Below, in pieces: positions 1,022 through 64,000 of a stretch of DNA of 64,000 nucleotides. The notes beneath the pieces were generated by a model. It made no database searches and was not told the origin of the DNA. It saw only the letters and a program-made list of their open reading frames with translations. The DNA lies in assembly GCA_000182565.2 (NCBI GenBank), contig KQ257454.1. One strand, given 5' to 3'. The position numbers and the translations under genes are program-made. Every line of letters begins with the position of its first letter. Position 1 is the first letter of the stretch. This DNA is from Spizellomyces punctatus DAOM BR117 (lineage: Eukaryota).

Positions 1022-2955
1022 ATGTCAGCTCAACCAGGAGGACATACATTTCGCGTCTGGGCACCGGATGCCCCTTCTGTAACGTTGGTGTTGGGCGCTG
1101 GGGACCAAGCCAAGTCCATCCCCATGAAGAAAGTAGATGTCCCATCTGCACGTAGTCAAGGATGGTGGGAGGCAGTTGTCAAGGGTGCAGGACACGGTTC
1201 CGACTATGGATTTCTGGTAGAGAAGAACAAATATAACGTCGACAAACCTTTACCGGACCCTCGAGGTTTCTGGCTTCCTACAAGCGTTCACGGACCCTCA
1301 CGAGTTTACAATCATGATCAATTCAAATGGACAGACAAAACATGGAGAGGCGTGCCTCTGGCAGGGTAAGCTAATTGTTGGCCGGCTCCACTGGAAAATA
1401 ACATTGACACATCCTCAGATCAGTGCTGTACGAGCTGCACGTCGGTACTTTTAGCGAGGAAGGCACCTTTGATGGTGCCATAAAGAAATTGGATCATCTC
1501 GTAAATCTAGGAATAGATGCAATTGAATTGCTCCCTTGCAACGCATTTCCTGGTCAATGGAACTGGGGATATGATGGGGTTGGCTTGTACGCGGTCCAAG
1601 AGTCATACGGTGGTCCCGACGGCCTGAAACGCCTCGTCGATGCTTGCCACGCTAGAGGTATTGGAGTTATAATGGACGTGGTATATAACCACCTTGGTCC
1701 CGATGGCAATTATTTGGAGTGCTTTGGTCCGTACTTTAGTACAAAGTCCAATTCATGGGGGACTTCAGTCAATTTGGACGGGCCATGGTCGGATGAGGTG
1801 CGGAGCTTCTTCATCGACAATGCTTTGATGTGGTTGGAGCATTATCACATCGATGGTCTTCGATTGGACGCCGTCCACGCTTTACTTGATACAAGCGCAA
1901 CCCATTTCCTCGAGGATCTCGCCAATCATGTACGCAATCTGAGTGCACGTCTTCGAAAGCCTCTGTTCCTCATCGCGGAGTCGGATCTCAATGATCCAAG
2001 GTTGATCAAAAGCCCTGAAGCCGGTGGATATGGTCTCGATGCGCAGTGGGCCGATGACGTTCACCATTCGCTCCATGCACTCCTTACTGGAGAACGGCAA
2101 GGATACTATGGTGACTTTGGTTCGCTAGAGGTGATGGCGAAAGCACTCCGTGGTGGATTTGTGCATGATGGGGAATGGTCCTCCTTTCGCAAGCGAAAAT
2201 ACGGTCGACCAATTCCCACTACCGTACCTACATCCCGCTTGGTGGTATTCTTGCAAGATCATGACCAGGTGCATATTCATCTCTCTTCTTTTCACGTTCG
2301 TAAGTGATACTGACTCGCACCTCGCCAGATTGGTAATCGCGCTGTTGGAGACCGCATTTCGGAGCATCTTAACGACAACCTTCTTCGTATCGGAGCAGCG
2401 TTGCTTTTGATGTCACCATTCACCCCTATGCTGTTTCAAGGTGAAGAGTGGGGAGCAAAAACACCTTTCCAGTTTTTTACCAATCATAATAAGGAGCTGG
2501 GGGAGCTCGTCAAGAAAGGTCGTCGAGCAGAGTTCGCTGAGCACGGATGGAACACGGAGGATGTTCCTGACCCGCAGGATCCCGAAACTTTCAAGCGAAG
2601 CAAGCTGAACTGGAATGAACCTACTCAAAACAAACACGCTTCTCTCTTGGATTGGTATAAGTCCCTCATTCATCTCAGGAGGAGCGTACCGGAAATTGCC
2701 AAAGTCGATGAATTTGGGCAGATTGAATGCGAAGTTGATGAGGAAGCGAAATGGCTGGTTCTTAGGAGAAGCGAAAAAGTGGCAACCGTGGTCAATCTAG
2801 GAAAGAAAGAACAAACTATTCCAGTGATCGGAGACGGGCATAACGGACGGAAGCAGATTGGCGACATTCTCTTGTCGCATGGGTCGTACGAGGTGAAAGG
2901 CGCTGCTCTGACGCTCGGACCAGAGTCTGTAGCAATTGTCAGAATTCGGGGGTAA
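1022..2955 (+). CDS. treZ: Malto-oligosyltrehalose trehalohydrolase (GH13 with N-terminal CBM48-like domain), bacterial type; 3 exons
   Basis: Motifs FRVWAP, LPDPR, YELHVGTF, NWGYDGV, DVVYNHLGP, DGLRLDAVHA, LIAESDLN, QDHDQ|IGNRAVGDR, PMLFQGEEWGA, GRRAEF, VPDPQDPETF. GT-AG introns at 1366-1418 and 2269-2328 restore the frame. An upstream in-frame ATG at 881 is possible. Confidence 0.93.
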
Positions 2956-25492: not shown

Positions 25493-25829
25493 ACCAGAAA
25501 TCATTGTTGCCTTCTATTCGCCAGTCTACAGGCCGCCTGTTTTTCTCAATTCACCGTCAATACTTTGGCAAATTGAAAGAAGGTGATAGCTGGCGTTGAA
25601 CGTGCTCTGGGCGCAAATCCCGGCAAGATATCAGTCTTTCAATTTGTATGTTATACCTTCAAAGTTGTAAGGGTTGGGCGGGTACTTGGAGGTGGTATCC
25701 AGCGATGGTTCAATCAGATTTAATCGCATTGGCACCGATTCAATACACATGTCACTGTCTTCTTAAAACGATACCTTTGAACATGTTTGGTCTGTGGGCG
25801 AGGCGGTCGCTCCCCGCGATCGCAAAGAC

Positions 25830-27014
25830 ATGAGCAGCCTACCTCCGCTCTATCCTCCAATTCGATACGGCATAGTTGAAGAAGACCTCTTTCGCGGGGC
25901 GTACCCGAAGGAACGCAATTTTCGCTTTTTGCGTCGGCTCCGGCTCACGGCAATTCTCTCGCTCACCCCAGAGCCGCCAAACGCGGACCTCTCCGCTTTC
26001 TGTGTCGCTAATAACATCACCTCAATTCACGTTCGAGTCGACAAGCCAAAAGAGCATGTTCCCTTATCGTTCCAGAAGACTAGTCAAATCTTGGCAATTT
26101 TGGCAGATCCGTCCAATCACCCGCTGTTCGTCCACTGCCTCGACGGTGCAGGTGTCACGGGCGCTGTGATTATGTGCTTACGGAAGTTGCAGTGCTGGAC
26201 AATGGCATCTATATTGGTTGAAAGTACTCGATATCATAAAGAAGGAGTAATTGGCAGCGAGGAGGCGGAGTTTGTCGAAAAATTCAATGCCGACATAGAA
26301 GTGCCTCCGAGACTGCCGAAATGGCTATGGGGTGGCCATCTAACGTTTAAGAAGCACCCTACTCTGAGATTGAAAGTAGCTGCGCAAAGTGGCAATGTGA
26401 CCGCCAAAGCGGGCACTGCGACTGCCGCGTCACTCGATGGAGGGGTTCACTCAGGGCCAGCGCCGGGTAATGGTGAAAATGGCATGTCTTGCAACGCGCT
26501 GGAAGCAGCGGTGGCTATACCATCATCATGCTCTGGTAGTAATACTCAAAATATGTTTAACCTAAATACTGCCGATGAACTGGGTGGGTCCTCGAGTGGC
26601 GATGACGACCGGCTACCACGACGGTCAGTAGATTCTGGAGCGCATGCAGTACCCTTTCACACCAATCTCCTTTCATCCAACGCCCTTACTGCCCTCACTG
26701 GAATGAACGGATCTCCTATGGTACCTGTATCGGTCTTGTCACATGCCCTTTCGGTGCCCAAGGATATTGGTGCACCGTACTTGAGCAACGTTACCGATTT
26801 GCGCAGGGAGAAGGAGGAGTTGCGTAGACGTGCTGTCACGGAAAACCTGCTTGGAGTGGACATGGTGGGCCGAACTGGAGAAACTGCAGGTTTGCAAACT
26901 CCCGAAGTTGACGATGATGGATTAGAAGACGTGGAAGATAGCATGTCTATGACCTTACAAGCCTTAGCGTTGGAGATGTCAGGATCATTCAACAAGGGCC
27001 CCAAGGCATCATAA
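25830..27014 (+). CDS. SIW14/OCA-family (PFA-DSP) phosphatase-like protein, OCA6-like, with a low-complexity C-terminal extension
   Basis: PPIRYGIVEEDLFRGAYP..RNFRFLRRL.L..ILSLTPE, HPLFVHCLDG...TG...CLRKLQCW, PPRLPKWLW. Confidence 0.85.
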   Translation: MSSLPPLYPPIRYGIVEEDLFRGAYPKERNFRFLRRLRLTAILSLTPEPPNADLSAFCVANNITSIHVRVDKPKEHVPLSFQKTSQILAILADPSNHPLFVHCLDGAGVTGAVIMCLRKLQCWTMASILVESTRYHKEGVIGSEEAEFVEKFNADIEVPPRLPKWLWGGHLTFKKHPTLRLKVAAQSGNVTAKAGTATAASLDGGVHSGPAPGNGENGMSCNALEAAVAIPSSCSGSNTQNMFNLNTADELGGSSSGDDDRLPRRSVDSGAHAVPFHTNLLSSNALTALTGMNGSPMVPVSVLSHALSVPKDIGAPYLSNVTDLRREKEELRRRAVTENLLGVDMVGRTGETAGLQTPEVDDDGLEDVEDSMSMTLQALALEMSGSFNKGPKAS

Positions 27015-30154: not shown

Positions 30155-31738
30155 ATGGACTTGCGCGCGATGAGCGTCGACGAATCAGATCCCATCGCAA
30201 TGATGCATTACGCAGATCGGTAGGCCGTATCCTTCAACATGTATTAGGCATCCGAAACGTGCATCTGACGCCATAGAGGAAACAAATACTTCCAGCCTCA
30301 TTTATGAAGCACAGGAGAGCGGAAGCGAAGAGCTGAAAGCAGATATTGGCTCAAAAGCGTTACACTACTATATTAGTGCGGCGCGATCAGGCGTTCCAGA
30401 GGCGGCACGAAAGGCAGCTGTTCATTTGTGGGAGGCAGGCCAACGTCGAGGCGCGAAAAAATTGTTACGGGAAGCTGCACAAGAAGGCGACCTAGCCGCA
30501 ACAAAGATACTGGCAGAATGGTTGTGGGCTGAAGACTACCCAGCTGTAAGGAGCACCTCGCAATCTCTGGAAATTGCGAAGAGAGAAGAAGAGCCCGAGG
30601 ACGAGGAGGGCGACGACAGCGACGATGAGGACGTAGAAATGGGCCACGGGTTAACTCCACAAAATAACATTGACCGAGTGACGAAAGTCAGCAAAGCGCG
30701 GCGGCAAGCGTTCCATTTGTGGTGCCTTGCCGCCGATCGCTTTGGCGATCTTACGAGTTAAGTTCGACAGGCAATCTTATGTAGACCTGTTATCTAAATT
30801 ACCGTTTAGGTATGCGCAAGGTTGCCGAGTGCTATGCTAATGGCGAGGGAGTAGGAATAGTGGACATGGACAAATCCATAGCGTACTGGGAGAGAGCTGC
30901 ATCTAAGGACGACAGAACAGCCATGGCTGCGTTGGCTCGGTACTACCACCAGCGCTCCCATGAGACATTCAAACGCCGTGGGAAAGGTCCCATAATGAAT
31001 TCCATCTCAGCACCGCATGAAGACGTGGCGCTCAATGAAGATGGTGATGGAACGGCTATGGTCAAACTACTACGGTACACATGGATGGCAGCATCTGATG
31101 GGGACATATTCTGTTTACGCCATCTTGCAAGTGCTCATCAGCATGGGTACCATGGCGCTCAAAAGGACGTTCCAGCCGCTCTGCAGCTCTACATGGCGGC
31201 AGCAGCACAAGGGGACATATCAGCGCGCGCTGCCGCTGCGGACATCCTGTATCACGGTGATGACGGCGTAGCACCGGATCGAGTCGGCGCATTTGCCTTG
31301 TATACCCAAGCTGCAAAAGAAGGTTTGGTACCTTCGTACAAGGCACTAGCAGACTGCTACCGCACTGGTCAGGGTGCCCCAGACGATAAGTGCAACCTTG
31401 AGCTCGCCTACATGTATTATTCCGAAGCAGCGCAGCAAGGATGTACCACCAGCTTGAGAATGCTCGGGGACCTTCATTGGAACGGCGATGGATGTGTAAA
31501 GGATCGCGCAAAAGCTGCGGAGTTTTACGAACAAGCAGCAGCGGCTGGGGACTTGGAAGCGGAGCGATGTTTGGCTAGATGCTACTGGTTGGGACATGGA
31601 ACGGTAAGGGACCGAGAAAAAGCGAAAGAAATCTGGCGAGAAATGGCGAGAAACTGTGACAGCTTAGGCGATGAGGAAAGAAGACGATTAGAAATAATGG
31701 ATGATGAAGCGTTTGAAGAGTTGATGGAGTATTGTTGA
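30155..31738 (+). CDS. Sel1-like repeat (SLR) protein
   Basis: Multiple AECYANGEGV / LGDLHWNGDGCVKDRAKAAEFYEQAAAAGD / LARCYWLGHG repeats. Confidence 0.85.
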
Positions 31739-32094: not shown

Positions 32095-35000
32095 ATGGAT
32101 CTCGATTTGTATGATGAGTTCGGAAACTATATCGGGCCCGATCTCGATGAAGATGAGGAAGATGAAGAAGACACTTACGCTCTGCCTCAAGCCCAGCGGA
32201 TGGATGTGGATGACGAAGATGAGTCTGGCGAGCGGGAAAAGGACACGACAGGGATGGCGCTGATGCAAGTAGATGGTAAGCACGGTGGTTCGGATTTGAG
32301 CTACTACCTGTACAACGTGATATTAACTCACATTTGGTGACCTGGTCAGAGGCCGTAAATCAAGTTGTTTTGCATGAGGACAAAAAGTATTATCCTACGG
32401 CGGAAGAGGTGTATGGCCCTGATGTGGAAACCTTGGTGCAAGAAGAGGACACACAGCTGCTCAGCGAGCCGATCATTGCTCCTGTTAAGCAAAGAAAAAC
32501 ATACATTCAGGAAAAGGATCTACCAGTTACAAGATACAGTAAAGAGTTCATGGCGGATCTGATGGGCTTTCCCGACTTGATTAGAAACATAGCGATTGTG
32601 GGACATTTGCATCACGGAAAAACCTCGTTTGTAGACGTTCTTGTTGCACAAACGCATGACATGACTTGGGATTTGGAAAGGAAGGAGCGGTACACGGACG
32701 TCCATGAGTTGGAGCGAGGAAGGGGTGTAAGCATCAAGAGCATGCCCATGTCTTTGGTGATGCAGGATTTGAAGGGCAAGTCTCACCTCCTGAATATTTA
32801 CGATACGCCTGGACATGTAAATTTCTCGGATGAAGTAACTGCCGCCGTTCGGATCTGCGATGGCGCGGTTCTCGTGGTTGACGCGGTAGAAGGAGTAATG
32901 GCGAACACTGAACGGCTGATCAAGCACTTGGCGGCAGAGCGAATACCGATGACACTTGTGATCAATAAAGTTGACCGGTTGATCTTAGAGCTCAAGCTTC
33001 CTCCCACGGATGCATATTTCAAGTTGCGACACACTATCGAGGAAGTTAACTCCATACTAGCGACTTGTACAGACGGAGTACGTCTGTCGCCGGAGGCGGG
33101 GAACGTGTGCTTTGCGTCCAGTCAAATGGGTTGGTGTTTCTCGTTGAAGTCGTTTGCACAAATGTACTCTGAAAGCTACGAGAACTTCGACGTTGAGGAA
33201 TTCGCGAAACGTCTGTGGGGCGATATATATTTCAATCCGGAGAAAGGAACATTCCGAAGGCGACCGGTTGACAGTTCCAGTAGTCGTACCTTCGTGCATT
33301 TCATTTTGGAGCCACTTTTCAAGATGTACGCGCAAGTAGTTGGTGAAGACGCAAAGACGTTGAAACAAACTCTTTCTTCCCTTGGGATATACTTGAAACC
33401 ATCTCAGCTATCTATGGATGTCAAGCCTCTCCTGCGATTAGTTTGCGAGCAATTTTTTGGAACAGTTAACGGCTTTGTTGATATGATCATCCGAAAGATT
33501 CCGTCACCAAAAGAAAATGCATGCAATAAAGTGGAGCACATCTACACAGGAGAATTGGACAGCCCCTACGCAGCGGCGATGAAAAACCTTGACCCCGAAG
33601 GGCCATTAATGATTCACATTGTGAAACTGTACAATGCTACGGATATGACAGGATTTGATGCGTTTGGACGAGTAATGAGTGGAACTGTGCAATTGGGACA
33701 GAAGGTTAGAGTACTTGGAGAAGGCTACACGCCCGATGATGAGGAGGACATGACAATCAGGGATGTGACAGGCCTGTCCGTGTACGAAAGCAGATACAAA
33801 GTCAAAGTGAGCTCCGCCTCCGCAGGTAGTTGGGTGTTGCTTGAGGGAGTAGATCCAGGTATCATCAAGACTGCAACTATCACCAGCAAGGAGGTCATCG
33901 AAGATGAGCCCGTATATATCTTTCGGCCACTCCGATACAACACGCAGCCCGTGGTGAAGGTTGCAGTGGAACCGGTGAACCCCACTGAGTTGCCTAAGAT
34001 GTTGGATGGCCTACGTAAAATCAACAAGTCTTATTCGATTGTTCAGACAAAGGTGGAGGAGAGTGGAGAGCATATTATTCTGGGTACCGGAGAACTCTAT
34101 TTGGATTGCGTTCTCCATGATTTGCGGCGGCTGTATTCCGAAATTGAGTTGAAAGTGGCAGATCCCGTGGTAAGATTCTGCGAGACAGTTGTCGAGACAA
34201 GTACCCTCAAATGCTTCGCTGAAACACCAAATAAAAGGTAGACATCTGGTGTGCTGTTTGATTTCGTTTTGTTTACCACTTAGTGACTAAATTGCTCTCC
34301 TCCAACCAGAAATAAAATAACGATGGTATCGGAACCTCTTGAAAAGGGGATAGCAGAAGATATTGAGAATCTGCAGGTCTCCGCAAAGTGGCCAGTGAAA
34401 CAGCTTGGGGATTGGTTTCAAAATAAGTACGACTGGGATGTGCTGGCATCCCGTAATATTTGGGCATTTGGACCAGACGATGCCGGACCAAATGTTTTGG
34501 TGAACGATACCCTACCAACTGAAACGGATAAACAACTTCTTCAGAGCGTCCGGGATTCGATAAAGCAAGGTTTTCAATGGGCGACCAGGGAGGGACCGCT
34601 ATGTGACGAACCGATTAGAAACGTGAAGTTCAAGATACTGGATGCTACAATCGCAAAGGAGCCAATTTATCGTGGCGGTGGTCAGATCATCCCAACTGCA
34701 CGACGAGTATGCTACTCGTCCTTCCTAATGGCCACCCCTCGTCTTATGGAGCCAGTATACTATGTCGAGGTGCAGGCGCCTGCTGACTGTGTCTCCGCAG
34801 TGTACACTGTCCTGGCCCGCCGACGTGGGCACGTAACTCAGGACATATCCAAACCTGGTTCTCCACTCTCCACTGTTAAAGCGTACATCCCCGTCATCGA
34901 TTCGGCGGGATTCGAGACAGATTTACGAACCCATACGCAAGGACAAGCATTTTGTCAACAAATGTTTGATCACTGGCAGATTGTACCTGGAGATCCATTG

Positions 35001-35180
35001 GACAAGAGCATCGTACTGCGACCGTTAGAACCAAGCCCAGCACAGCATTTAGCGAGGGATTTCATGGTGAAAACCAGAAGAAGAAAAGGTCTCAGCGAGG
35101 ACGTTGCTGTGACAAAATTCTTTGATGATCCAATGTTGGTAGAGTTGGCGAAGTTGGAAGGAGGTGTTATTGGATTCTAA
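32095..35180 (+). CDS. SNU114: U5 snRNP 116 kDa EF-2-like GTPase
   Basis: [86 protein letters not shown]. Confidence 0.98.
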
Positions 35181-49063: not shown

Positions 49064-50760
49064 TCAATATCTACAGTGTCCCAGCCATCGTGGTACTAAA
49101 ATCAGGTCTCGTATGTTCGCCATGCCCGTGATATATGCTAGGTACCTCTCGAATCCGAGCCCGAACCCACCGTGAGGTACTGACCCGAATCGCCTCAGAT
49201 CTAAATACCATCCGTATTCCTCTACATCTAGACCAGCATGTCTCATGCTCTGTTCCAAAATATCCGGGTTATCTTCCCTTAGGCTTCCACCTACCAATTC
49301 GCCGATCTTCGGAACTAGCAGGTCCACACAAGCGACTGTCTCCTGCGTGTCTGCAGATCTTTCACCAATAGCCGACACCCGCATGTAAAATGGCTTGACA
49401 CACTTTGGGTAGTCTGTAACAAAGACAGGCCCTTTGATGTGCTCTTCCGCCAAATAGCGCTCGTGTTCGCTCTGCAGAGCCAACCCCCACTGGACAGGAT
49501 ATTCCCATGCGCGATTCACCTTTGAAAGAATCTCAACCGCCTCACCGTATGTTATCCGCGCAAACGGTTGACTTGACGTCAAGCCTGCAAGTCGGCTTGG
49601 TAGCTCCTTATCCACCCACTTTGAACAGAAGGCTATATCTTCCTCGCTGTGCTCCAATACGAAAGCAGTGGTCTCTCTTATGCATGCTTCAATAAAATCA
49701 AGCAGTTCCCCAATTTGCGTGATGAAAGCCATTTCTGCCTCCAACATCCAAAACTCTGCTAGATGGCGACTTGAAAGGGAAGGTTCTGCGCGGAAAGTGG
49801 GGCCAAGGGTATACACTCGGGACATTGCTGAAGCCAACATCTCTGCATGCAGTTGTCCTGACACCGTTAAATATACAGCATGGTTAAAAAATTCGGATGG
49901 TCCAGGAGCCACCTGTTCTCTACTGGGCATGGGCAATGACTTTTCAAATGGGCTAGAGTCGTGAGCTTGTCGTTCTTTGATATACGCTTTCAGAGACTCG
50001 TTGCTCACTACGCGAAACACCTCGCCCGCCCCTTCACAATCATTGGACGTCAGAATTGGGGTATGAGCTTGCACGAATCGGTGAGACTTGTGTTCGACCA
50101 CATTAGCAGTGGACCCCTTCGAAGCGCCACGGCACTGGATGAACCTACTTGAAAGAAGTGCTGTAGACCCAATATTGCAGTGTTTCGTATCCTCCATATC
50201 GCTCCAAAAGTTTTACTCCGCGACCGAAAATGCCCATGCTCTCGCAAGTAGTCAAAAGATACTCTCGCTTTGTGGAGAGGATACACCTGCATTGACAATT
50301 TAGTTTGGATCCGCAATGAATGAGGATATGACATACCTCCGGATTTGCTAAACCGTAAACTCTACAATCTGACACTTTCAACTCTTTGCTCTGCTCTTTT
50401 CCTGGACTCAACACGAGCTGACCTGTCAAGCAAACACTAGCACCTGTATGCAAGCTAACTAACTGCCGTTTAGTGAATTATCCACCTGTTAACTCTCCAA
50501 TTATCCACGTACTCTTTAGCCATTTCCGGCTTTAATACAGCTTGAAGTCCCCTCCCTGTCGATCCGTCATTGATCTCCACGAAGGCCAGGTTCTTTTGCA
50601 AACGGACTGAACGCACCCATCCATTAGCGCTTGCGGTCGAGTTCACTGGCTTTTTTAAGATATCCACAATAGTATCATTTGGAAACTTGTATTTCGATGT
50701 TGATATCTTTCTGAATTGGCGACAAAAGGCCGACTGATCAAGGCATCGTCGTCCTAACAT
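49064..50760 (-). CDS. NARS2: Mitochondrial asparaginyl-tRNA synthetase
   Basis: Presequence; GWVRSVR...INDGS, TPILTSNDCEGAGEVF, YLTVSGQLH.E, GPTFRAE...RHLAEFWMLEAE, LQSEHERYL, KPFYM, GGFGLGFER. Confidence 0.93.
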
Positions 50761-56244: not shown

Positions 56245-59200
56245 TTATGGGTCTGGAATATCCGATTGCGGGTCCTCCTTTGAAGATTCATTGTTGCTGT
56301 CTTGCTGATCTGGGCTATTTCCTTCATGTAACTTGAGCAAGGCATTCACATTCTTTTCATCACCTCGACCAGTATCTGCGTCGCTGTTTCCATCTCTCCA
56401 GTAGGGATCACTCTCAACGTCATCACGACTATTCAACTTGTATTCGTCTAAGAAGTGGTCGGAACTGTCCAGCACCCCCGACTGGTGATCACCCTCAGGA
56501 TGTCGCACCATTAATTCTTCCACATCGTTGCTAACAGGAGCATCAACTTGTAAAACGAATTCCACCCTATTTTGATCATCACCCGACGCGACCTCATCCG
56601 AAAGACCAGACTGTGGCGGTTCCTGATCATGAGGTGATCCTTCGTTGTTGGAAGCATCCATTTCCTCTGCAGCAGCTATGGCCCTTGCAATTGCCGCATC
56701 ATCCGGGGTTGTAGCCACATCAGTTTCTTGCAACGGCTCAATTGCCTCAGAGAATGATGCGGATTCTACTTGCGGTCGCCTCACTGACTTCATTGCTCTT
56801 CTCAAGGTCACACGCGCCTTCAGTAATGAACCCGCCTTCATCAAGCGCGTCGTTGCATCCAAACCCCCAGAAGAGGTCGACAGAAGCAGCTGTCCTTCAG
56901 CGTCAGTCTCCTCCATCATCGCTGACGGATCGTCGCTTTCGTACCGATCGTCGATACTGCCGAACGACCTGCCCCGACGGACAGTCAGTCGCGAGGAAAA
57001 GGGGTCCTGTCCCTCAACCGGTTTGAGACGAGACATGCCGTCTTCTGCGGGACCTACAATAGCAAGGAATGTACCCCGAGGTCCGTACTCTTGTGCAAAC
57101 ACCTGTGAAGCTGATGCTGTGGGACTTTGTACCTCCTCCTCAATTTCGATCGACCGTAGTAGCGTTTCACGCAAGTCGCTATATGAAGGATCCCGTGATC
57201 TGACTGGGGACGATGATGCGGAGTCATCTCTAGATATGCTCTCCAAAACTGGAGCGGGGTTAGAAGCCGATCGCGCCCTATTAGCTTTCAAGAGCGCCAC
57301 GTGCTGCGTATAGGCCTCCTTCTGTTTTGCTTTACGATCTGCTGCCTCATTTTCCCGGCGCGCTCGCGCAAGTGCATTTGAAAATGATGCAAACAATCCA
57401 AAAAATTCCTCCGGGGCGTCTCCTCTTTCATTCGGGTCATCGCCAAAGAATGAAATAAGCTCATTGACATTCTTTTCCGCCACGGCGGCTTGGTACTCCA
57501 GCCCAGCGACACGCACTTCCGCGCGGGCACTGAAGGCCTGCATCACTGGCACAAATCGATCGTTCTCGCTGGCAGGACCGAGCTTAGCAAGCTCTGCAAG
57601 CTCTGCCTTGACACCTTCGACTCCCTTACGAAGCGCCTTGATGGATGCCAAAAGTGCAGGGATGCACACTCGCGCCGCCAATTCGACTCTGGGCATTTCC
57701 CTCATGAAATCAAGGAGTTCTGGTTCCTTTTCGTCCAGCTTCTTAGCAAGATAATGCAAAAGCGTGGAAACCGTCCTGTGGTTGTTTTTGCTCGCCCGTG
57801 TATCTTTGAGCTAAGAAAAAGGGGGAGGGTTACCAGACTGTAAAAGATAGCCACAATTGACGAACGATGTAATTACATTCAGGAGTGCTTCCAGCTTAAA
57901 CCCATGCGCATCACCACGGAAGGACGTCCCATTCAAATAGTTGCCCACAACCAGCACCGTTTCGAGTAGCTTTCGCAAACGTTTGGAGTTCTTAAGTTGC
58001 TCGCATGCAAGTAGGACAGTTTCCATGTCCTTCGATCAAAAAAATAACTCGGTGTCACACAAGAGAACTCGCTGGACAGTTTCCTGCTTAAGCCAAAGCT
58101 TACCGGAACGACTTCTTCAACCTCCTCTGCGAACCGCTTGCGGAAGCGCATGCTTTCCAGTCTGTACGCTAATCTAGGTATATCCATGACTTCACGAATA
58201 TACTTCTCTGCGTTGCCGAGATCTTCTATATCTCCTTCATAGCCACGAACAATATCGCACTAGATGAGGAAACTGTGTAAGGAATATCGTTGGACGTCTC
58301 CGCCAGAAAGAAACTACCTCTTCATCGGTGGGCGCCCACATTCGAAGTGCATGTAACCGCTCAACAGACAAAATACTATCGTCTATTTCGATAATAGCAT
58401 TCCTGATTTCCGGATATTGGAGACGTAAACCTCCCAGCATGATAGCTGTTCAGTCATATGATCGTGAGAAGCCAAGTTTGCAAGCAATAGTTGAATTGGC
58501 ATAACACCTACCAATGTTCTGCGCTCTTCGGCTATCTATCAGGGTGATGACTTTCTTTACAGCCGCTTCCTTTTTCGGCTGTGGTTTGGGACGTGGTGGG
58601 GCTTCTGTATATGCCAATTCATATCTTGTTCTATTAGCGTAGAGACTATTGCAAACACACCTTCTTTGGCAAATAGTTCCACGAGCTCCTTCTCGTCAAA
58701 GAAAACCTCCTTAATAACCGGCCCTCGGTACGCTTCTTCTACAAGGGTCTCCCAGATTGTGGACTTCGCAAGACGACTTGGAATCTTCACCCATTGCAGA
58801 GGCTGGATGCGCGTAATTCATTAGCATGACAACTAGAAAATGTAACATGTAACAACTCACCTTCATGGGCTGTTTCGCTTTGACAATCTTCAATCCGACA
58901 GGGGGTAGCGGCATTCCTCCCGGTGGTGGAGGTGGTGGAGGTGGTCCTCCTCCAGCAGCAGGAGGTGGAGGCGGCGGCGGTGGTGGTCCGCCAGTGGCAG
59001 GTGGTGGAGGTGGAGGCGGCGGAGGCGGCGGCGGAGGAGCGGAAGGTGGTGGTTCAACCTTGTCTTCTTTGCGTGCATCAGCCATTGCCTTTGCTTGTAT
59101 CTCGTTTATTAATACTTCAACACGAGCTTGCTGTTCAGGTTTGAGCGCGGCCAGCTTGCCGGAAAGACTGTCGGGTTTAATAGTCCGTAGCTCGCTCACA

Positions 59201-62200
59201 ATATCTTCCAAGCGTCGGATTTCCTCCCACAATCGGCCAACCCCTGCGCCTGCGCCCAATCGTACGGACGCCGGACGGTCTTCACCGTCGGTTTCTATAA
59301 ACCCTGTGCCACTATCGGAAGTTGTGAGGACAGGTGGTACCGGGAGCGGACGAGGACGGCGTTGTCTTCCTGTCGTATCATGAGGAGGTATTCCGTCCCG
59401 AGGAGGAAGGGGCGGACAGTTCTCCTGTGGCCGTCGGCTCAATGTCGCTCTGAGGTGGTCCAACTCTTTCCGCTGTGCTTCGAAGGCTGTGAGACTTTCC
59501 GCATACTATCCATTGAAATGGTCGATCAGCGGCCATACCGAGCAAGGCATACGTCCCCTCAACGCAGTGCATACCTTCTGTTTCATTGTCTCCAGCTCTC
59601 TAACTACCGTCAATAAGTTACTGCCACCCGGTGGGGTTGAAGTATGTCCGGTAGACTGAAAGCCGACCACGACTCCGGCAACCTCCTCCACCCCACGGAT
59701 CAAGTCTGCAGCTAAAGTTTGATACTTGACGGTTCGATTTGACTTTTCAGGTGCTGAGGAATGCTCTATCCATGCCGACATTCTATTTGAAATTCCTCCC
59801 GTGGCACGCTCCATGAGCGCAAGTGCCTCAGCTGCCTCTTCCCTGACCTCAAGATCGGCATCCACATCCATTTTTATCTGGTGTGCGCCGGCCTCTGAGC
59901 AACGGTTAATTATGCTAGCGCGTTTTCGCAATGCTTCCACCATGGTTGAAACATTTTTAATCGTGGTCAGCACCAGATTTTGCGCCCGCTCAGGGTCAGG
60001 TAAAGCCTTCGCAGTTTCCAAAAGCTTGTCTAGTGTTTCTCGAGGGTCACTATTGGATCGTGTGATGGCAAGTGTGAGATGCAGTTCAACCTTCGAGGTC
60101 GTCCGATATATCTGACCTTAACGCCGCGTTCTTCTCACGGAAAGCGGCCTCCATCATTTCCAAATCCGCTGCTCGATCTTCTTCATATGCATCCAATTGC
60201 ACTGCCAGGGGTTCTGGGGGCTCCATGTCCCGCAAAGTCTGGAAAGCCATGTTCACTGTCATTCATTCAGGCGCTGATCCAAAAATGTCAACCTACCTGC
60301 ATAACTCTTCGCAGACCCCGATCCTCGACCTCGCGCCGTATCTTCCACCTCTCACGTGAGTCTTCAGGAGCAGATACAAGTCCATTCACGAAAATCATTA
60401 TGGCCGTCCGGTACTCCCATGTAGCTTGAACCTCATCCGAGTCTCGCCAATCGGCTGGGGTGGTGCAGGTTGCTTGCAACGGGCTTACAAACGGATCAAG
60501 AAGGGAGTTAATCATGCAATTGAACCTGCCAGGTTCACCCTGAGCAACCGCAAGATCTGACATTGACTGCAGGGCCAGTCTATGAATGAGTGAGGTGTAA
60601 GAATGAGAAATCTTAGTCATGCGCCAGTAGAGCTGGGCTTACGTTCTGCCTTTCTCAGAAAGCAGGCACATGGGGCCCAAAACCCCAGCCACTGCAGTCC
60701 GTAATGCTATATTCGCGCGTCGGGTCCTCGCATCCCCACCAATGGTTGCTGCTGAAAGATCAGGTGCAGCCAAGCAGTACGCCAGCTGCTTCATTAAGGA
60801 AGGGGAATTCAACACCGCGGCATATCCTACTTCGGCATTCATGATTAGTTTGATGCAGCGAACAGTCTCAAGGCCAAGCTCGTCTTCTAAAACAGCATCG
60901 GCGTATGATGAATGTCCTCCGGCAGGAATTGGGGGTAGGGGTTTGTCGGCGGTATAGTTCCGGTAGGACCGATGTCCCCCCGATGTGATACTCCGCAAAT
61001 GCTTTGCTTCATAAACGCGGTCCAATACAATTTCTAGAGCACGTATTCCACGCACACCATGAAGACCTAAGTAGGGGACCTCAGCCTGCAGGAAGTCACG
61101 TATGAAATTGGCATTTGACAGGGAGAGTGTAATGCGGAATGCCGTGAGATGCCGATATAGGGCCTTAAGAGGAGTGTTTCTAACGTGTCGTAGGAGTGAC
61201 AGTGATGCAATGAGAGAAGTTTCTCAGACGCCTGCAAACCACATCCGATTTTACCTATTTGCTAACAGAGCAACAAAGCGTTGGGGAGTTTGCTCCCCAA
61301 GAGTGTTCAAGTCGGCAGGAGATGAAGTTTGAAGTGAGTCGGTTCGCTCAGGAAGAGACGGCATATTACCGTTCGCAGAATGGCGGTCTGGCAATGGTGG
61401 GGCGACTAATGTGGAAGTTGTAGACAACGTTCTTCCCGGCTGGCTGCCCTCCTTTTGACGTAGATGATGATACAGCTGTATGATCTCTCTTTGTCGCGTA
61501 CGGTCCATTTTCAACATATTATCTCGGGCAGATCCTCTGATATCTAGTTCATCCTGCATGGTGAAACATGCAGATACTGTGAATTTCACGTAGTGTTTTG
61601 CAAAATATCATCTTTGGTTTAGGTGACCCTTACCAACACTCTACGGAACACTTTTTCAAGGTCTTCCGTATCGAGGTTAACGGACTCAACCTCAGGGGCT
61701 TGAGCCTGGCTCTGTGTTCTCTCCTGACGTGGTGCGGCAGAGTTTCTGCGGGCAGATTGTTTTTCCAATTCCCTGGCCCGGCGATACTGTTCGATAAGAT
61801 CGCGCTTTCGCTTAGCGTCCAGAGTTCGGATCATGGTTTCTCGTGCAGAACCATGTATCTTTAATCTGTCCTACTCTCCAAAAATATCGGAGTTTGGTAT
61901 AATGGGTTGTCATAAACCGCTAATGGATGACTTACTAATACCGCCACAAAGAGCCTTTCAAGCTTCTCATCAGTTTCCCCATTGAGTGACGTAACAGATG
62001 ACTTGTGCGCCAAAGGCATAGACTCCATTGATGACGCATTGGAATGGTGAGAGCCTATCGAGCCGACAGAAGTCCTTCTCATCCCAGGCGAACCCGGTGG
62101 AGGGGAGTGATTCCCTTGTACGTTTGCCCTCTCTGCGTCTGGTCTTCTTTGCTGCTGCCAGTCTAGAATGAGACGCCTTTTCCGACTACTGTCAAAGCTC

Positions 62201-62427
62201 ATCATGTGAGTCCGTGCAGGACCATGAATTCCGCGATCATTCTGTATGGTTGGAGAGTAAGTTATGTCAGATGCACTTACTTTGACAGACTATATGCTCG
62301 TGTTACGTACCAGCATGGCCTCAAATGCACGCAATAGGTCCTGACTCTCCCGCTCACGGTCCTTTCCGCTGGCTCCGAAAATTCTGGACCCAATCTCCGC
62401 CAGCTTATCTTTTGTTCGCTCCGACAT
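56245..62427 (-). CDS. Diaphanous-related formin (triplicated G region, GBD/FH3, FH1, FH2, long acidic tail)
   Basis: FH1 poly-Pro at ~58910-59050; FH2 motifs K|PLQWVKI, IDSRRAQNI, PTDEE, VGNYLNG...GFKLEAL, LLHYL, EEFFGLFASF; GBD/FH3 CIKLIMNAEVG, IFVNGLV. Confidence 0.93.
58915..59052 (-). repeat. CCN repeat encoding the FH1 polyproline tracts
   Basis: ggtggtggaggtggtggagg... / ggcggcggagg runs. Confidence 0.85.
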
Positions 62428-62650
62428 GCTCGTATGGGAGGTTCGGCGGGTCTCTTTGAAGTCATTTGGCCGATACATTAAGTACAGAAGCCCTTCTGGG
62501 CAGTCGTCCCGCTGAGCAGGAAAGTTTACGCTGCTGAAATGAAGACGTAAAATGAGGAGACATGAATGCAAGTGGACATGCGGGGATTCATGATATCTTT
62601 CAGTGGCGCAGTTTTCAAGTGGCAGTACAACGATGTCATTATAAACAAAA

Positions 62651-64000
62651 TCAACGAGTGGCCTCCAAGAGATCGCGGGTCCATTTCGCACCTTCTTCAA
62701 AATGAGTACCCAAGCCGACAAATCCCTCCATACATGTCCCCAAGCTCCCCAGCACATCGTCGGCTTCCGTCAGTAGGCCAAGTCGATGCAGATTAATGTA
62801 ACCTGTTGCAGCTTGCCAAATGCAGATCCCAAACGTCCAGGGCTCCAGATTTTTAATGGTCGGATTGGTGGGTAAAATAACTTCAGCCAAAATGCGTACT
62901 ATCTCCCGCGCTTCCTCCCGACATCCTACAACAGCAGCGCTTGCCTTCGCATATTCTAAACTCGTTGATGAGTGTACTGTGTCGATCATCGCCGGCCAGC
63001 GAAGGAGCAAACGAGAGGTGTGATATAACAGATGCACAGAGACCCAGAACCAGCTTTGCAAGGGCTTATCGGCGGTAAGATCAGGTATGAAGTACTTGCC
63101 AAGATGAGTTGCCCACGATGGCAGACCAGCAAACCAAGCGCGAAGCTCCTGATCTAAGCCCTGAAGCTGTGACTGGCGATCCGCATAACTTCCGACTTCC
63201 ATTGAATTCGGGTTTGGTAAATATAGCCAAGTTGGGAGTCGAATATTGTCCTGATGGCCACTCGGTATAGGGTCTGGAAGAATACGATCAAAAATGTCAT
63301 GCAGCTTGAGAAACGCAATATACGGATCAGTCATAATGTCGCGTATCGCATCCGGTTGTGGAGATTCCCCGGATTTGAGTACAGTTTGCCAGAGAAGCTC
63401 GGCAGAAGGTAACTGTACTCGAACAATCTCTAATGAAATCCGCCGCGGACGAAATCCCAGATTCGCCATCTGCCTTAATTCCCTGGTGAGCAACACTGAC
63501 TTAATCACATGTCACCGGGTATTGCTACATACCGGTCTCCATGAAAGCAGGCCCAGAATGTCCTTCGCCTCGTCTCCGTTACGACCCACGTTTGTGACGG
63601 GTCGATCTCCGGTTCCAGATGAAGGTCTAATGACAGCGCGATGCTAATTGCACTGTCCAAGTGCTGCACTCCAGTAAGAGCTGTAGTAGAGGAGTCAGGG
63701 GCCATGATCAACAATTTCCAGCGACAGGGAGTCACTACTCACTACGGCCCGAGGACAGAGCGTGCGCCTAATTGGGCAATTTTCAACCATCGCGCAAACT
63801 TTTAAGTGCAATTGAATGGCCTTATAGCATACCGATAGTAGTAACAAGGCATGGATTACTTCAATGTCAGCAGCAGCTTGGCTTTGATGCAACAATTGCT
63901 CAGCACGTTCATAGAATAAGTCGCCAGCCCTGTACTGAGGCCGTCCCGGGAAGAGGTTTGAATACTTTGCTCCAAGGGTATACACTGCATTCATTAGCAA
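62651..64000 (-). CDS. Fungal-specific transcription factor (middle homology region typical of Zn(II)2Cys6 TFs); 5' end outside window
   Basis: LMNAVYTLGAKYS, DLFYERAEQLL, IHALLLLS, AISIALSLDLH, ETRRRTFWACFHGDR, LLYHTSRLLL. Confidence 0.85.

What the first reader, a model, noticed from the sequence alone, without database searches (positions are those of the whole stretch)
61480..62427. Formin with a triplicated Rho-binding G-subdomain generated by exon duplication
Seen: three tandem ~45-aa units precede the armadillo GBD/FH3. They read DLLRAFEAML|NDRGIHGPARTHMMSFDSSRKRRLILDW, EKLERLFVAVL|DRLKIHGSARETMIRTLDAKRKRDLIEQY and EDLEKVFRRVL|DELDIRGSARDNMLKMDRTRQREIIQLY. Each is split by a phase-0 intron at the same position (62242-62310, 61871-61935, 61554-61633). 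Established: Diaphanous-related formins carry one such helical G region that contacts Rho-family GTPases. Inference: three diverged copies could bind several GTPases (coincidence detection) or give avidity or alternative-splicing control of actin nucleation. I do not know of this architecture being described.
Basis: partly seen in the sequence, partly recalled or inferred. Interest (0 to 1): 0.72.

Follow-up and report, generated by a model that had tools for sequence, protein, structure and literature searches.

The report
Chytrid formin with three Rho-binding-type modules
A chytrid-fungus gene for an actin-building formin carries three copies, instead of the usual one, of the small helical module that formins use to sense Rho-type switch proteins, and related chytrids keep all three.

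Summary
On the minus strand, 56245-62478, lies a 15-exon Diaphanous-type formin. Its N-terminus holds three ~44-aa units (aa 28-71, 130-173, 209-252). Each is cut by a GT-AG, phase-0 intron at the same unit position. Pairwise scores exceed all 2000 shuffles (z 11-14).

In a close homologue that consists of the units only, Pfam Drf_GBD gives three stretches on profile positions ~3-53 (58.7 bits).

The triplication is old, not local. All 5 spizellomycete homologues have three units. Three-unit formins occur in at least five orders of Chytridiomycetes. Units group by position. The named non-chytrid fungi have one unit.

AlphaFold models of homologues give each unit as a confident three-helix module on disordered linkers. 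Unit 3 is collinear with the G subdomain of solved formin-GTPase complexes. Unit 1 is most like the single unit of other formins.

I could not test GTPase binding by any unit, or whether exons 1-3 are in the mRNA. I found no description in the papers I could search. Verdict: a new variant of a known kind, of moderate interest.

The parts
56245..62478 (-). Formin gene. The CDS has 15 exons and 1752 aa from the ATG at 62427. The likely true start is the ATG at 62478, which adds 17 aa. The stop codon is at 56245-56247.
   Evidence: The exon coordinates join into one open frame, and all 14 introns are GT..AG, 56-80 nt long. Homologues begin MYRP/MYRG, as does the frame from 62478. Poly(A) ends of the upstream gene lie at about 62579 and 62612.
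62146..62346 (-). Unit 1 (aa 28-71), split by intron 1 (62242-62310, phase 0). It is the unit most like the single unit of other formins.
   Evidence: The position-1 profile scores best for 28 of 36 single-unit proteins.
61775..61971 (-). Unit 2 (aa 130-173), split by intron 2 (61871-61935, phase 0).
   Evidence: Exon 3 gives Drf_GBD E 0.017 on profile 19-70.
61458..61669 (-). Unit 3 (aa 209-252), split by intron 3 (61554-61633, phase 0). It is collinear with the canonical G subdomain.
   Evidence: Exon 4 gives Drf_GBD E 0.11 on profile 19-54. In the model of homologue P0002, GTPase-bound formin structures align from residue 217-224, which is its unit 3. Pfam joins unit 3 and the ARM into one match in P0015 and P0040.
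61936..62241 (-). Exon 2, 306 nt, phase 0-0. It encodes the last two thirds of unit 1, a linker, and the first third of unit 2.
61634..61870 (-). Exon 3, 237 nt, phase 0-0, built like exon 2. It encodes the last two thirds of unit 2, a linker, and the first third of unit 3.
60031..61292 (-). Armadillo region (rest of Drf_GBD plus Drf_FH3/DID), aa ~308-640, with introns 4-7.
   Evidence: Pfam gives Drf_GBD 2.3e-06 (profile 135-174) and Drf_FH3 1.8e-06 on single exons. The homologue model matches the mDia1 DID at Z 25, rmsd 2.0-2.9. An RNA-library contig joins 61255 directly to 61179, so intron 4 is spliced.
58912..59052 (-). FH1: proline runs, aa ~944-990.
   Evidence: Read directly from the translation.
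57373..58867 (-). FH2 domain, aa ~1006-1377, with introns 9-14.
   Evidence: Pfam FH2 scores 1.1e-22 on the last exon alone, profile 233-370, and 6e-87 in homologue P0003.
57148..57177 (-). DAD-like motif (DLRETLLRSI) behind FH2, aa 1443-1452.
   Evidence: A pattern search found the same motif in 3 of 3 Geranomyces homologues and in none of 6 more distant chytrid proteins tried. The comparison with the MDxLLxxL consensus, which is quoted in the preprint read, is by eye.

Best explanation
This is a Diaphanous-related formin of a spizellomycete-like chytrid. In formins of this type a small three-helix 'G' module sits ahead of the armadillo/DID region. Here it is present in three tandem copies, strung on disordered linkers.

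Shown:
- The three copies are homologous to each other and to the G part of Drf_GBD.
- Each is cut by a phase-0 intron at the same point.
- Exons 2 and 3 are symmetric paralogues, as expected from two tandem duplications of one exon.
- The triplet is present across Chytridiomycetes, with position-specific signatures.
- The units are about as conserved as the armadillo region (units 52-75% identical, armadillo region 60-62%), and the linkers much less (21-46%).
- AlphaFold gives each unit of the homologues as a confident, separate three-helix module.

Inferred:
- All three are in the protein and have non-redundant roles.
- Most likely they are tethered docking modules for active Rho-family GTPases. 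The formin dimer would then offer six of them. They would capture membrane-bound GTPases, possibly different ones for each position.
- The module that pairs with the first armadillo repeat then releases the DID-DAD lock, as in the two-step model for mDia1.
For: - Gene model and introns.
- Repeat significance: z 11-14, 0 of 2000 shuffles for each pair.
- Pfam Drf_GBD in P0001, which holds the units only: 58.7 bits against a cut-off of 30.1, three stretches, the best on profile 3-53. P0013 also gives three stretches.
- Three units in 5 of 5 close homologues.
- A family-specific unit HMM was run over the 142 fetched proteins plus the window's own (143 in all). 23 have three units, 9 have two, 38 have one, none has four. 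The same sequences reversed give 0 hits.
- Named three-unit proteins come from Spizellomycetales, Chytridiales, Rhizophydiales, Lobulomycetales, Cladochytriales and Blyttiomyces.
- Units cluster by position: 8 label changes against a shuffled mean of 28.9, as low in 0 of 200 shuffles.
- Units are 52-75% identical to those of four homologues, linkers 21-46%, the ARM 60-62%.
- AlphaFold gives three helices per unit. Block-mean pLDDT is 87-96 in P0002 and 93-98 in P0001, linkers are below 50, and pTM is 0.30 for the units alone.
- The mDia1 GBD is described as three triangularly arranged helices that contact switch I, with a two-step binding model. I read these as passages of PMC4111664.
- A DAD-like motif is conserved in Geranomyces.
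Against: - No binding test was possible.
- Sequence searches did not align the units to any solved G subdomain. phmmer of P0001 against PDB chains gave 0 hits at E<=10. The A1 profile matched mDia1 only from the armadillo region on.
- The fold match of a single unit to a solved G region is not discriminating. EhFormin1 residues 73-123 match at Z 5.4, tied with unrelated helix-loop-helix folds.
- Pfam's generic model sees fewer units in more distant chytrids: 3, 2, 1, 2, 0 and 1 stretches in six proteins. The wide survey therefore rests on an HMM built from this same family.
- Units 1 and 2 lie far from the armadillo region, whereas the review describes the mDia1 G as joined by a short linker.
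- Unit 2 of Geranomyces and Thoreauomyces has lost the G-x-A-R motif.
- RNA evidence covers only intron 4.
Confidence: 0.55

Rival explanations
1. Only one unit works as the GTPase-binding G subdomain. This would be unit 3 by position, or unit 1 by sequence. The other two have been taken over for other partners, for example cortical localisation factors or lipids, as the N-termini of yeast formins hold several localisation regions.
For: Position-specific signatures are kept across orders, which suits different partners. Unit 2 lost the G-x-A-R motif in Geranomyces and Thoreauomyces. Units 2 and 3 are the diverged ones: 28 of 36 single units score best with the position-1 profile. PMC3268721 on the localisation regions of Bni1 was seen only as a search listing with its abstract.
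Against: All three keep the same hydrophobic pattern and the predicted three-helix form. No other partner is indicated by any result.
Confidence: 0.3
2. The extra units act within the molecule. They would be decoy G modules that compete with the working unit for the armadillo surface, or for the DAD, and so tune autoinhibition rather than bind GTPases.
For: The units sit on flexible linkers 35-60 aa long that could reach the armadillo region. The G subdomain is said to be loosely attached when Rho is absent (passage of PMC4111664).
Against: No result points to it. With the units alone the model shows no confident arrangement between them (pTM 0.30). Contacts in the 940-aa model could not be inspected.
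Confidence: 0.1
3. Gene-model artefact or splicing variant. The main mRNA would hold fewer than three units, either because transcription starts downstream or because the symmetric exons 2 and/or 3 are usually skipped.
For: Exons 2 and 3 are phase 0-0 and multiples of three, so skipping would keep the frame and rebuild one hybrid unit. No RNA read bridges introns 1-3.
Against: Units 1 and 2 are as conserved as unit 3 and as the armadillo region. They are kept in many chytrid orders. All splice sites are canonical and the frame is open. Constant skipping would not preserve them. Occasional skipping is not excluded.
Confidence: 0.05

Closest known systems
mDia1 (DIAPH1) GBD-FH3, as in the complexes with RhoC (1Z2C) and Cdc42 (3EG5)
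   Same: Both have a three-helix G module ahead of a five-repeat armadillo DID, then a dimerisation region, FH1 and FH2. The model of homologue P0002 matches the mDia1 DID at Z 25 with rmsd 2.0-2.9. The GTPase-bound chains align from the start of unit 3.
   Different: mDia1 has one G, joined to the DID by a short linker (passage of PMC4111664). Here there are three, 35-60 aa apart, and the last lies about 55 aa from the armadillo region. No sequence-level match to the mDia1 G was obtained.
Fungal 'Yeast-subtype' formins (Bni1/SepA type) and their relatives in Mortierellomycota, Entomophthoromycotina, Glomeromycota and Basidiomycota
   Same: They share the overall architecture, and they are the next-closest relatives after the chytrids in the search with P0002. 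Their single unit has the same motif pattern. Pruyne 2017 places a Spizellomyces formin with this subtype (passages of PMC5628938).
   Different: One unit was detected in each named non-chytrid fungus, 5 of 5: Basidiobolus, Lunasporangiospora, Parajaminaea, Neoconidiobolus and Funneliformis.
Formin of the amoebozoan Vermistella antarctica (P0132/P0142)
   Same: It has two tandem G-like units ahead of the armadillo region.
   Different: It has two units, not three. Both score as position-1-like (32.9 and 31.8 bits, against 3-20 bits for the other positions). This looks like a separate duplication.
PKN/PRK kinases with three tandem HR1 Rho-binding repeats (recalled, not tested here)
   Same: A Rho effector with three tandem copies of a small helical GTPase-binding module, whose copies differ in what they bind.
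   Different: The fold (antiparallel coiled-coil finger) and the protein family are unrelated. The resemblance is functional only and comes from memory.

Membership tests
Diaphanous-related formin (DRF) | FH2 domain | tested here: met
   Pfam FH2 scores 1.1e-22 (81.1 bits, cut-off 34.8) on the last exon alone. Homologues score 6e-87 and 6e-84.
Diaphanous-related formin (DRF) | Proline-rich FH1 directly before FH2 | tested here: met
   Runs of 8-13 prolines at aa ~944-990, read in the translation.
Diaphanous-related formin (DRF) | Armadillo DID/FH3 region | tested here: met
   Drf_FH3 scores 28.4 bits (cut-off 27) on exon 6 alone, and Drf_GBD profile 135-174 scores 27.7 bits on exon 5. The region is 60-62% identical to P0002, P0003 and P0005. 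The P0002 model matches the mDia1 DID at Z 25.
Diaphanous-related formin (DRF) | N-terminal GTPase-binding G subdomain recognised by Drf_GBD | tested here: met
   Homologue P0001 (units only) scores 58.7 bits against a cut-off of 30.1, in three stretches. The window's own exons reach only 15.1 and 12.5 bits, because each unit is split by an intron.
Diaphanous-related formin (DRF) | C-terminal DAD (MDxLLxxL) that binds the DID | tested here: inconclusive
   A DAD-like motif lies at aa 1443-1452. It is shared with 3 of 3 Geranomyces proteins and was found in none of 6 more distant chytrids with my pattern. No binding test was done.
Diaphanous-related formin (DRF) | Activation by binding of a GTP-loaded Rho-family protein | not testable with these tools
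G subdomain of the formin GBD (each of the three units) | About 50 residues forming three short helices | tested here: met
   AlphaFold on homologues gives three helices per unit. In P0002 these are H55-71/76-83/87-101, H125-142/147-156/159-186 and H220-233/239-245/249-268, with block-mean pLDDT 87-96. P0001 gives the same form, pLDDT 93-98. The window's own protein was not folded.
G subdomain of the formin GBD (each of the three units) | Short linker to the first armadillo repeat | tested here: not met
   Units 1 and 2 lie about 235 and 135 residues before the armadillo region, and unit 3 about 55. Single-unit fungal formins also have long gaps here: the unit of P0045 is at 502-541, and its armadillo match starts near 756, aligned to query residue 437.
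G subdomain of the formin GBD (each of the three units) | Contacts switch I of the GTPase through a hydrophobic face | not testable with these tools
   The hydrophobic pattern is kept in all three units. Mapping it to the mDia1 contact residues listed in PMC4111664 would rest on a sequence I only recall, so I did not do it.

The most novel reading that the evidence does not exclude
The three modules have become specialised for different Rho-family GTPases, for example Rho, Rac and Cdc42, which I recall chytrids all possess. This one formin would then integrate several polarity signals. In-frame skipping of the symmetric exons 2 and 3 would let the cell set how many and which modules are present. 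Nothing of this kind is known for any formin.
Probability: 0.15. Interest if true: 0.75.

Novelty: new variant of a known kind. Interest (0 to 1): 0.5.

Why it matters
How Rho-family GTPases find and open Diaphanous-type formins is still only partly understood. According to the review read, GTPase binding alone gives only partial activation, and a weak first contact with the G module has been proposed.

A natural formin with three separately folding G-type modules offers a way into this question. The modules have been kept since before the chytrid orders split, and each has its own conserved signature. That gives a ready-made test of whether the G module can bind a GTPase without the armadillo region, and of whether number and spacing matter.

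[quoted passage not shown] The feature may therefore bear on how their cells switch between crawling and walled growth. It does not change what a formin is.

Tried and rejected
- Whole-genome search of the window's own assembly: no genome is held.
- RNA check of introns 1-3 and of exon skipping. The one RNA run of the species (X8) is 60-nt 3'-tag data, with depth 0-0.16 over 61382-62551 and no joints. X9 laid nothing. X2 is low-depth contigs of unknown kind. Only X1 helped, with one contig across intron 4.
- Two metagenome scans for related loci, meant to compare intron positions: nothing was confirmed.
- phmmer of P0001 against PDB chains: 0 hits at E<=10.
- The A1 profile against PDB chains reached mDia1 only from the armadillo region on, so contact residues could not be mapped by sequence.
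- Wide fold search with the units-only model: best Z 5.8, not discriminating.
- The third word-index search, with A1, returned 7 proteins and added no new informative relative.
- One Pfam call was over the size limit and was repeated with fewer proteins.
- Complex prediction was not used, because no Rho-family sequence was available and a unit-armadillo docking job would not have tested a claim I make.
- I considered that the units might be generic low-complexity or coiled-coil matches. I rejected this because of the Pfam hits, the reversed-sequence control (0 hits) and the three-helix models.
Full report
**What is there.** The finding lies in the 5' part of a minus-strand gene. I took exon ends from the sequence and joined 15 exons by coordinate. 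They give one open frame of 1752 codons from the ATG at 62427 to the stop at 56245-56247. All 14 introns are GT..AG and 56-80 nt long.

All three are phase 0.
- The frame stays open upstream. An ATG at 62478 would add 17 residues that begin MYRP. The five homologues begin MYRP or MYRG, so 62478 is the likelier start.
- Poly(A) ends of the upstream gene lie at about 62579 and 62612. The formin's 5' untranslated part must therefore be short.

**Pfam on single exons** gives:
- Drf_GBD profile 135-174, 27.7 bits, on exon 5
- Drf_FH3, 28.4 bits, on exon 6
- FH2, 81.1 bits, on exon 15

Proline runs at aa ~944-990 make the FH1. A DAD-like motif follows FH2 at aa 1443-1452. It is shared with 3 of 3 Geranomyces proteins, and my pattern did not find it in 6 more distant chytrid proteins.

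**The repeat is real.** The units are aa 28-71, 130-173 and 209-252.
- Pairwise local scores are 62, 70 and 90 against shuffle means of 20-24, giving z 11.0-13.9. For each pair, 0 of 2000 shuffles reach the observed score. Ungapped identity is 12-14 of 44.
- No fourth copy exists in the protein.
- Each unit is cut after its 12th residue by a phase-0 intron.
- Exon 2 (306 nt) and exon 3 (237 nt) are therefore built alike. Each holds the last two thirds of one unit, a linker, and the first third of the next. Both are phase 0-0.
- This is what two tandem duplications of one symmetric exon would leave. It also means that skipping either exon would keep the frame and rebuild a hybrid unit. That last point is a property of the sequence, not an observation of splicing.

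**Relation to the formin G subdomain.** The spliced protein could not be handed to the outside tools, so I used exons and homologues.
- Exon 3 and exon 4 each match Drf_GBD at the same profile positions, 19-70 and 19-54. Both are below threshold (E 0.017 and 0.11). Exons 1 and 2 give nothing.
- A search with exon 3 found one protein, P0001, among 62 candidates. P0001 is from Phlyctochytrium arcticum, is 330 aa long, and its gene model ends where the window's exon 4 ends. It holds the three units and no armadillo region.
- On P0001, Drf_GBD scores 58.7 bits against a cut-off of 30.1, in three stretches. The best is residues 39-89 on profile 3-53.

**Conservation among close relatives.**
- A search with P0001 for longer proteins found four more among 8000 candidates: Thoreauomyces humboldtii, two Geranomyces variabilis and G. 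michiganensis. These genera are Spizellomycetales.
- An HMM built from the window's three units finds three units in 5 of 5 homologues, and each is most like the unit at the same position.
- Against four homologues, the window's units are 52-75% identical, its linkers 21-46%, and its armadillo region 60-62%.

**Wider survey.**
- I searched 1.84 billion representatives with P0002 and found 133 proteins at E<=0.001.
- I then ran a broader unit HMM over the 142 proteins fetched by then plus the window's own, 143 in all. 23 have three units, 9 have two, 38 have one, 73 have none and none has four. The same sequences reversed give 0 hits.
- This HMM was built from the family itself. Many of the two-, one- and no-unit proteins are fragments or N-terminally cut models. 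For example, P0008 begins inside a unit, and two shorter Batrachochytrium models show one unit where the longer ones show three.
- I looked up 30 proteins, and 27 carry an organism name.
- The three-unit proteins among those 30 are from Blyttiomyces, Batrachochytrium dendrobatidis, Zopfochytrium, Kappamyces, Gorgonomyces, a Chytridiales species, Irineochytrium, Cladochytrium tenue, Clydaea, Phlyctochytrium planicorne, Dinochytrium and Terramyces. Two further cluster members listed, from Lobulomyces and a second Kappamyces, also have three.
- The lineages I looked up put these in Chytridiales, Rhizophydiales, Lobulomycetales, Cladochytriales and Blyttiomyces incertae sedis, besides Spizellomycetales. 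The orders of the other genera I only recall.
- The five named non-chytrid fungi each have one unit: Basidiobolus, Lunasporangiospora, Parajaminaea, Neoconidiobolus and Funneliformis. So does the amoebozoan Clastostelium.
- Among named chytrids, Cladochytrium replicatum and Globomyces show one unit and Homolaphlyctis none.
- An independent check with Pfam on six more distant chytrid proteins is weaker. It gives 3, 2, 1, 2, 0 and 1 Drf_GBD stretches, and 1 in the single-unit control.

**One old triplication.**
- A tree of 52 units (43 columns, weak branches) needs 8 label changes for the four labels, where the minimum is 3. Shuffled labels need 28.9 on average, and 0 of 200 shuffles are as low.
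- Position-specific marks are visible in the alignment. Most first units end in a tryptophan, and second units carry a one-residue insertion.
- With position-specific profiles, 28 of 36 single-unit proteins score best with position 1. By sequence, the most N-terminal unit is therefore the one closest to the ordinary G, and units 2 and 3 are the diverged copies.
- The amoebozoan Vermistella has two units, both position-1-like, so that duplication looks separate.

**Structure.**
- AlphaFold on P0002 (940 aa, 40-row alignment, mean pLDDT 73.5) gives each unit as three helices, with block-mean pLDDT of 87-96. The linkers are below 50.
- On P0001 alone the units stay at 93-98 and pTM is 0.30. They are confident modules with no confident mutual arrangement.
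- The P0002 model matches the mDia1 DID at Z 25, rmsd 2.0-2.9. The four GTPase-bound formin chains that include a G subdomain (3EG5, 4YC7, 4YDH, 4DVG) align from model residue 217-224, the start of unit 3. Their overall rmsd is 7-13 Å, so collinearity is shown but docking geometry is not.
- Pfam also joins unit 3 and the armadillo region into one match in P0015 and P0040.
- I could not inspect contacts in the models. The window's own protein was not folded.

**How it most likely works.**
- The review PMC4111664, of which I read passages, describes the mDia1 GBD as three triangularly arranged helices. They contact switch I through a hydrophobic face and move freely without Rho. The review proposes a weak first contact with the GBD before the GBD-FH3 interface forms and the DAD is displaced.
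- On that basis, three conserved, separately folding G-type modules on flexible linkers are best read as tethered GTPase-docking modules. A formin dimer would carry six.
- Their position-specific conservation argues for non-redundant roles rather than simple spare copies.
- This step is inference. No binding was tested.
- The rivals are that only one unit binds GTPases and the others bind something else, that the extra units act within the molecule, or that fewer units are in the main mRNA. They are scored in their own section.

**RNA.**
- One contig of an RNA library (X1) matches 61255-61478 without a difference and continues with 14 letters that equal 61166-61179. Intron 4 is therefore spliced.
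- The RNA run of the same species label (X8) is 3'-tag data. Depth is 16.7 just below the stop codon and 0-0.16 over exons 1-4, with no joints.
Conservation argues against it.

**Literature.**
- I searched full text for formin with chytrid and GBD terms, for tandem-repeat and Rho-binding terms, for phrases for duplicated, tandem, two, multiple or second GBD, and for the locus names of the Spizellomyces and Batrachochytrium proteins.
- I read passages of Prostak et al. (bioRxiv 10.1101/2020.06.12.142943), Pruyne 2017 (PMC5628938), Rivero et al. 2005 (PMC555941) and Kühn and Geyer 2014 (PMC4111664).
- None of the passages mentions more than one G or GBD in a formin.
- Prostak et al. refer to a Supplementary Text 1 on chytrid Diaphanous-like formins that depart from the canonical form. 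Supplements were closed, so a note there cannot be excluded.

**Verdict.** The exon-duplication origin is supported. The functional ideas are untested. This is a new variant of a known kind, of moderate interest.

Noticed in passing
window 62579-64000 (minus strand): The gene upstream of the formin ends with poly(A) sites at about 62579 and 62612, less than 140 nt from the formin's likely start codon. It is well covered in the 3'-tag RNA run (depth 38.8). Its last long exon (62654-63511) matched no Pfam family at E<=0.001.
   Followed up: partly
P0132/P0142 (Vermistella antarctica transcriptome proteins), residues 28-68 and 146-184: An amoebozoan formin has two tandem G-like units, both closest to the position-1 profile. 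This looks like an independent duplication of the same module outside fungi.
   Followed up: partly
window 57148-57177 (minus strand): A DAD-like motif lies behind FH2. It is identical in three Geranomyces homologues, and my pattern did not find it in six more distant chytrid formins. The long acidic tail behind it (aa ~1460-1752) has no recognised domain.
   Followed up: partly
window 1408-2304, 25767-27011, 30785-31735, 32280-35177 (all +), 49067-50212 (-): Other genes in the window, from Pfam on long open frames: alpha-amylase, Y_phosphatase2-type tyrosine phosphatase, Sel1-repeat protein, the U5 snRNP GTPase EFTUD2/Snu114 type, and a class II aminoacyl-tRNA synthetase. No small GTPase was seen among the ten frames scanned.
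   Followed up: no
P0137/P0138 versus P0011/P0136 (Batrachochytrium dendrobatidis): Public gene models of the same Batrachochytrium formin differ by about 200 N-terminal residues. The shorter models show one unit and the longer ones three, so copy counts taken from annotation alone are unreliable.
   Followed up: no
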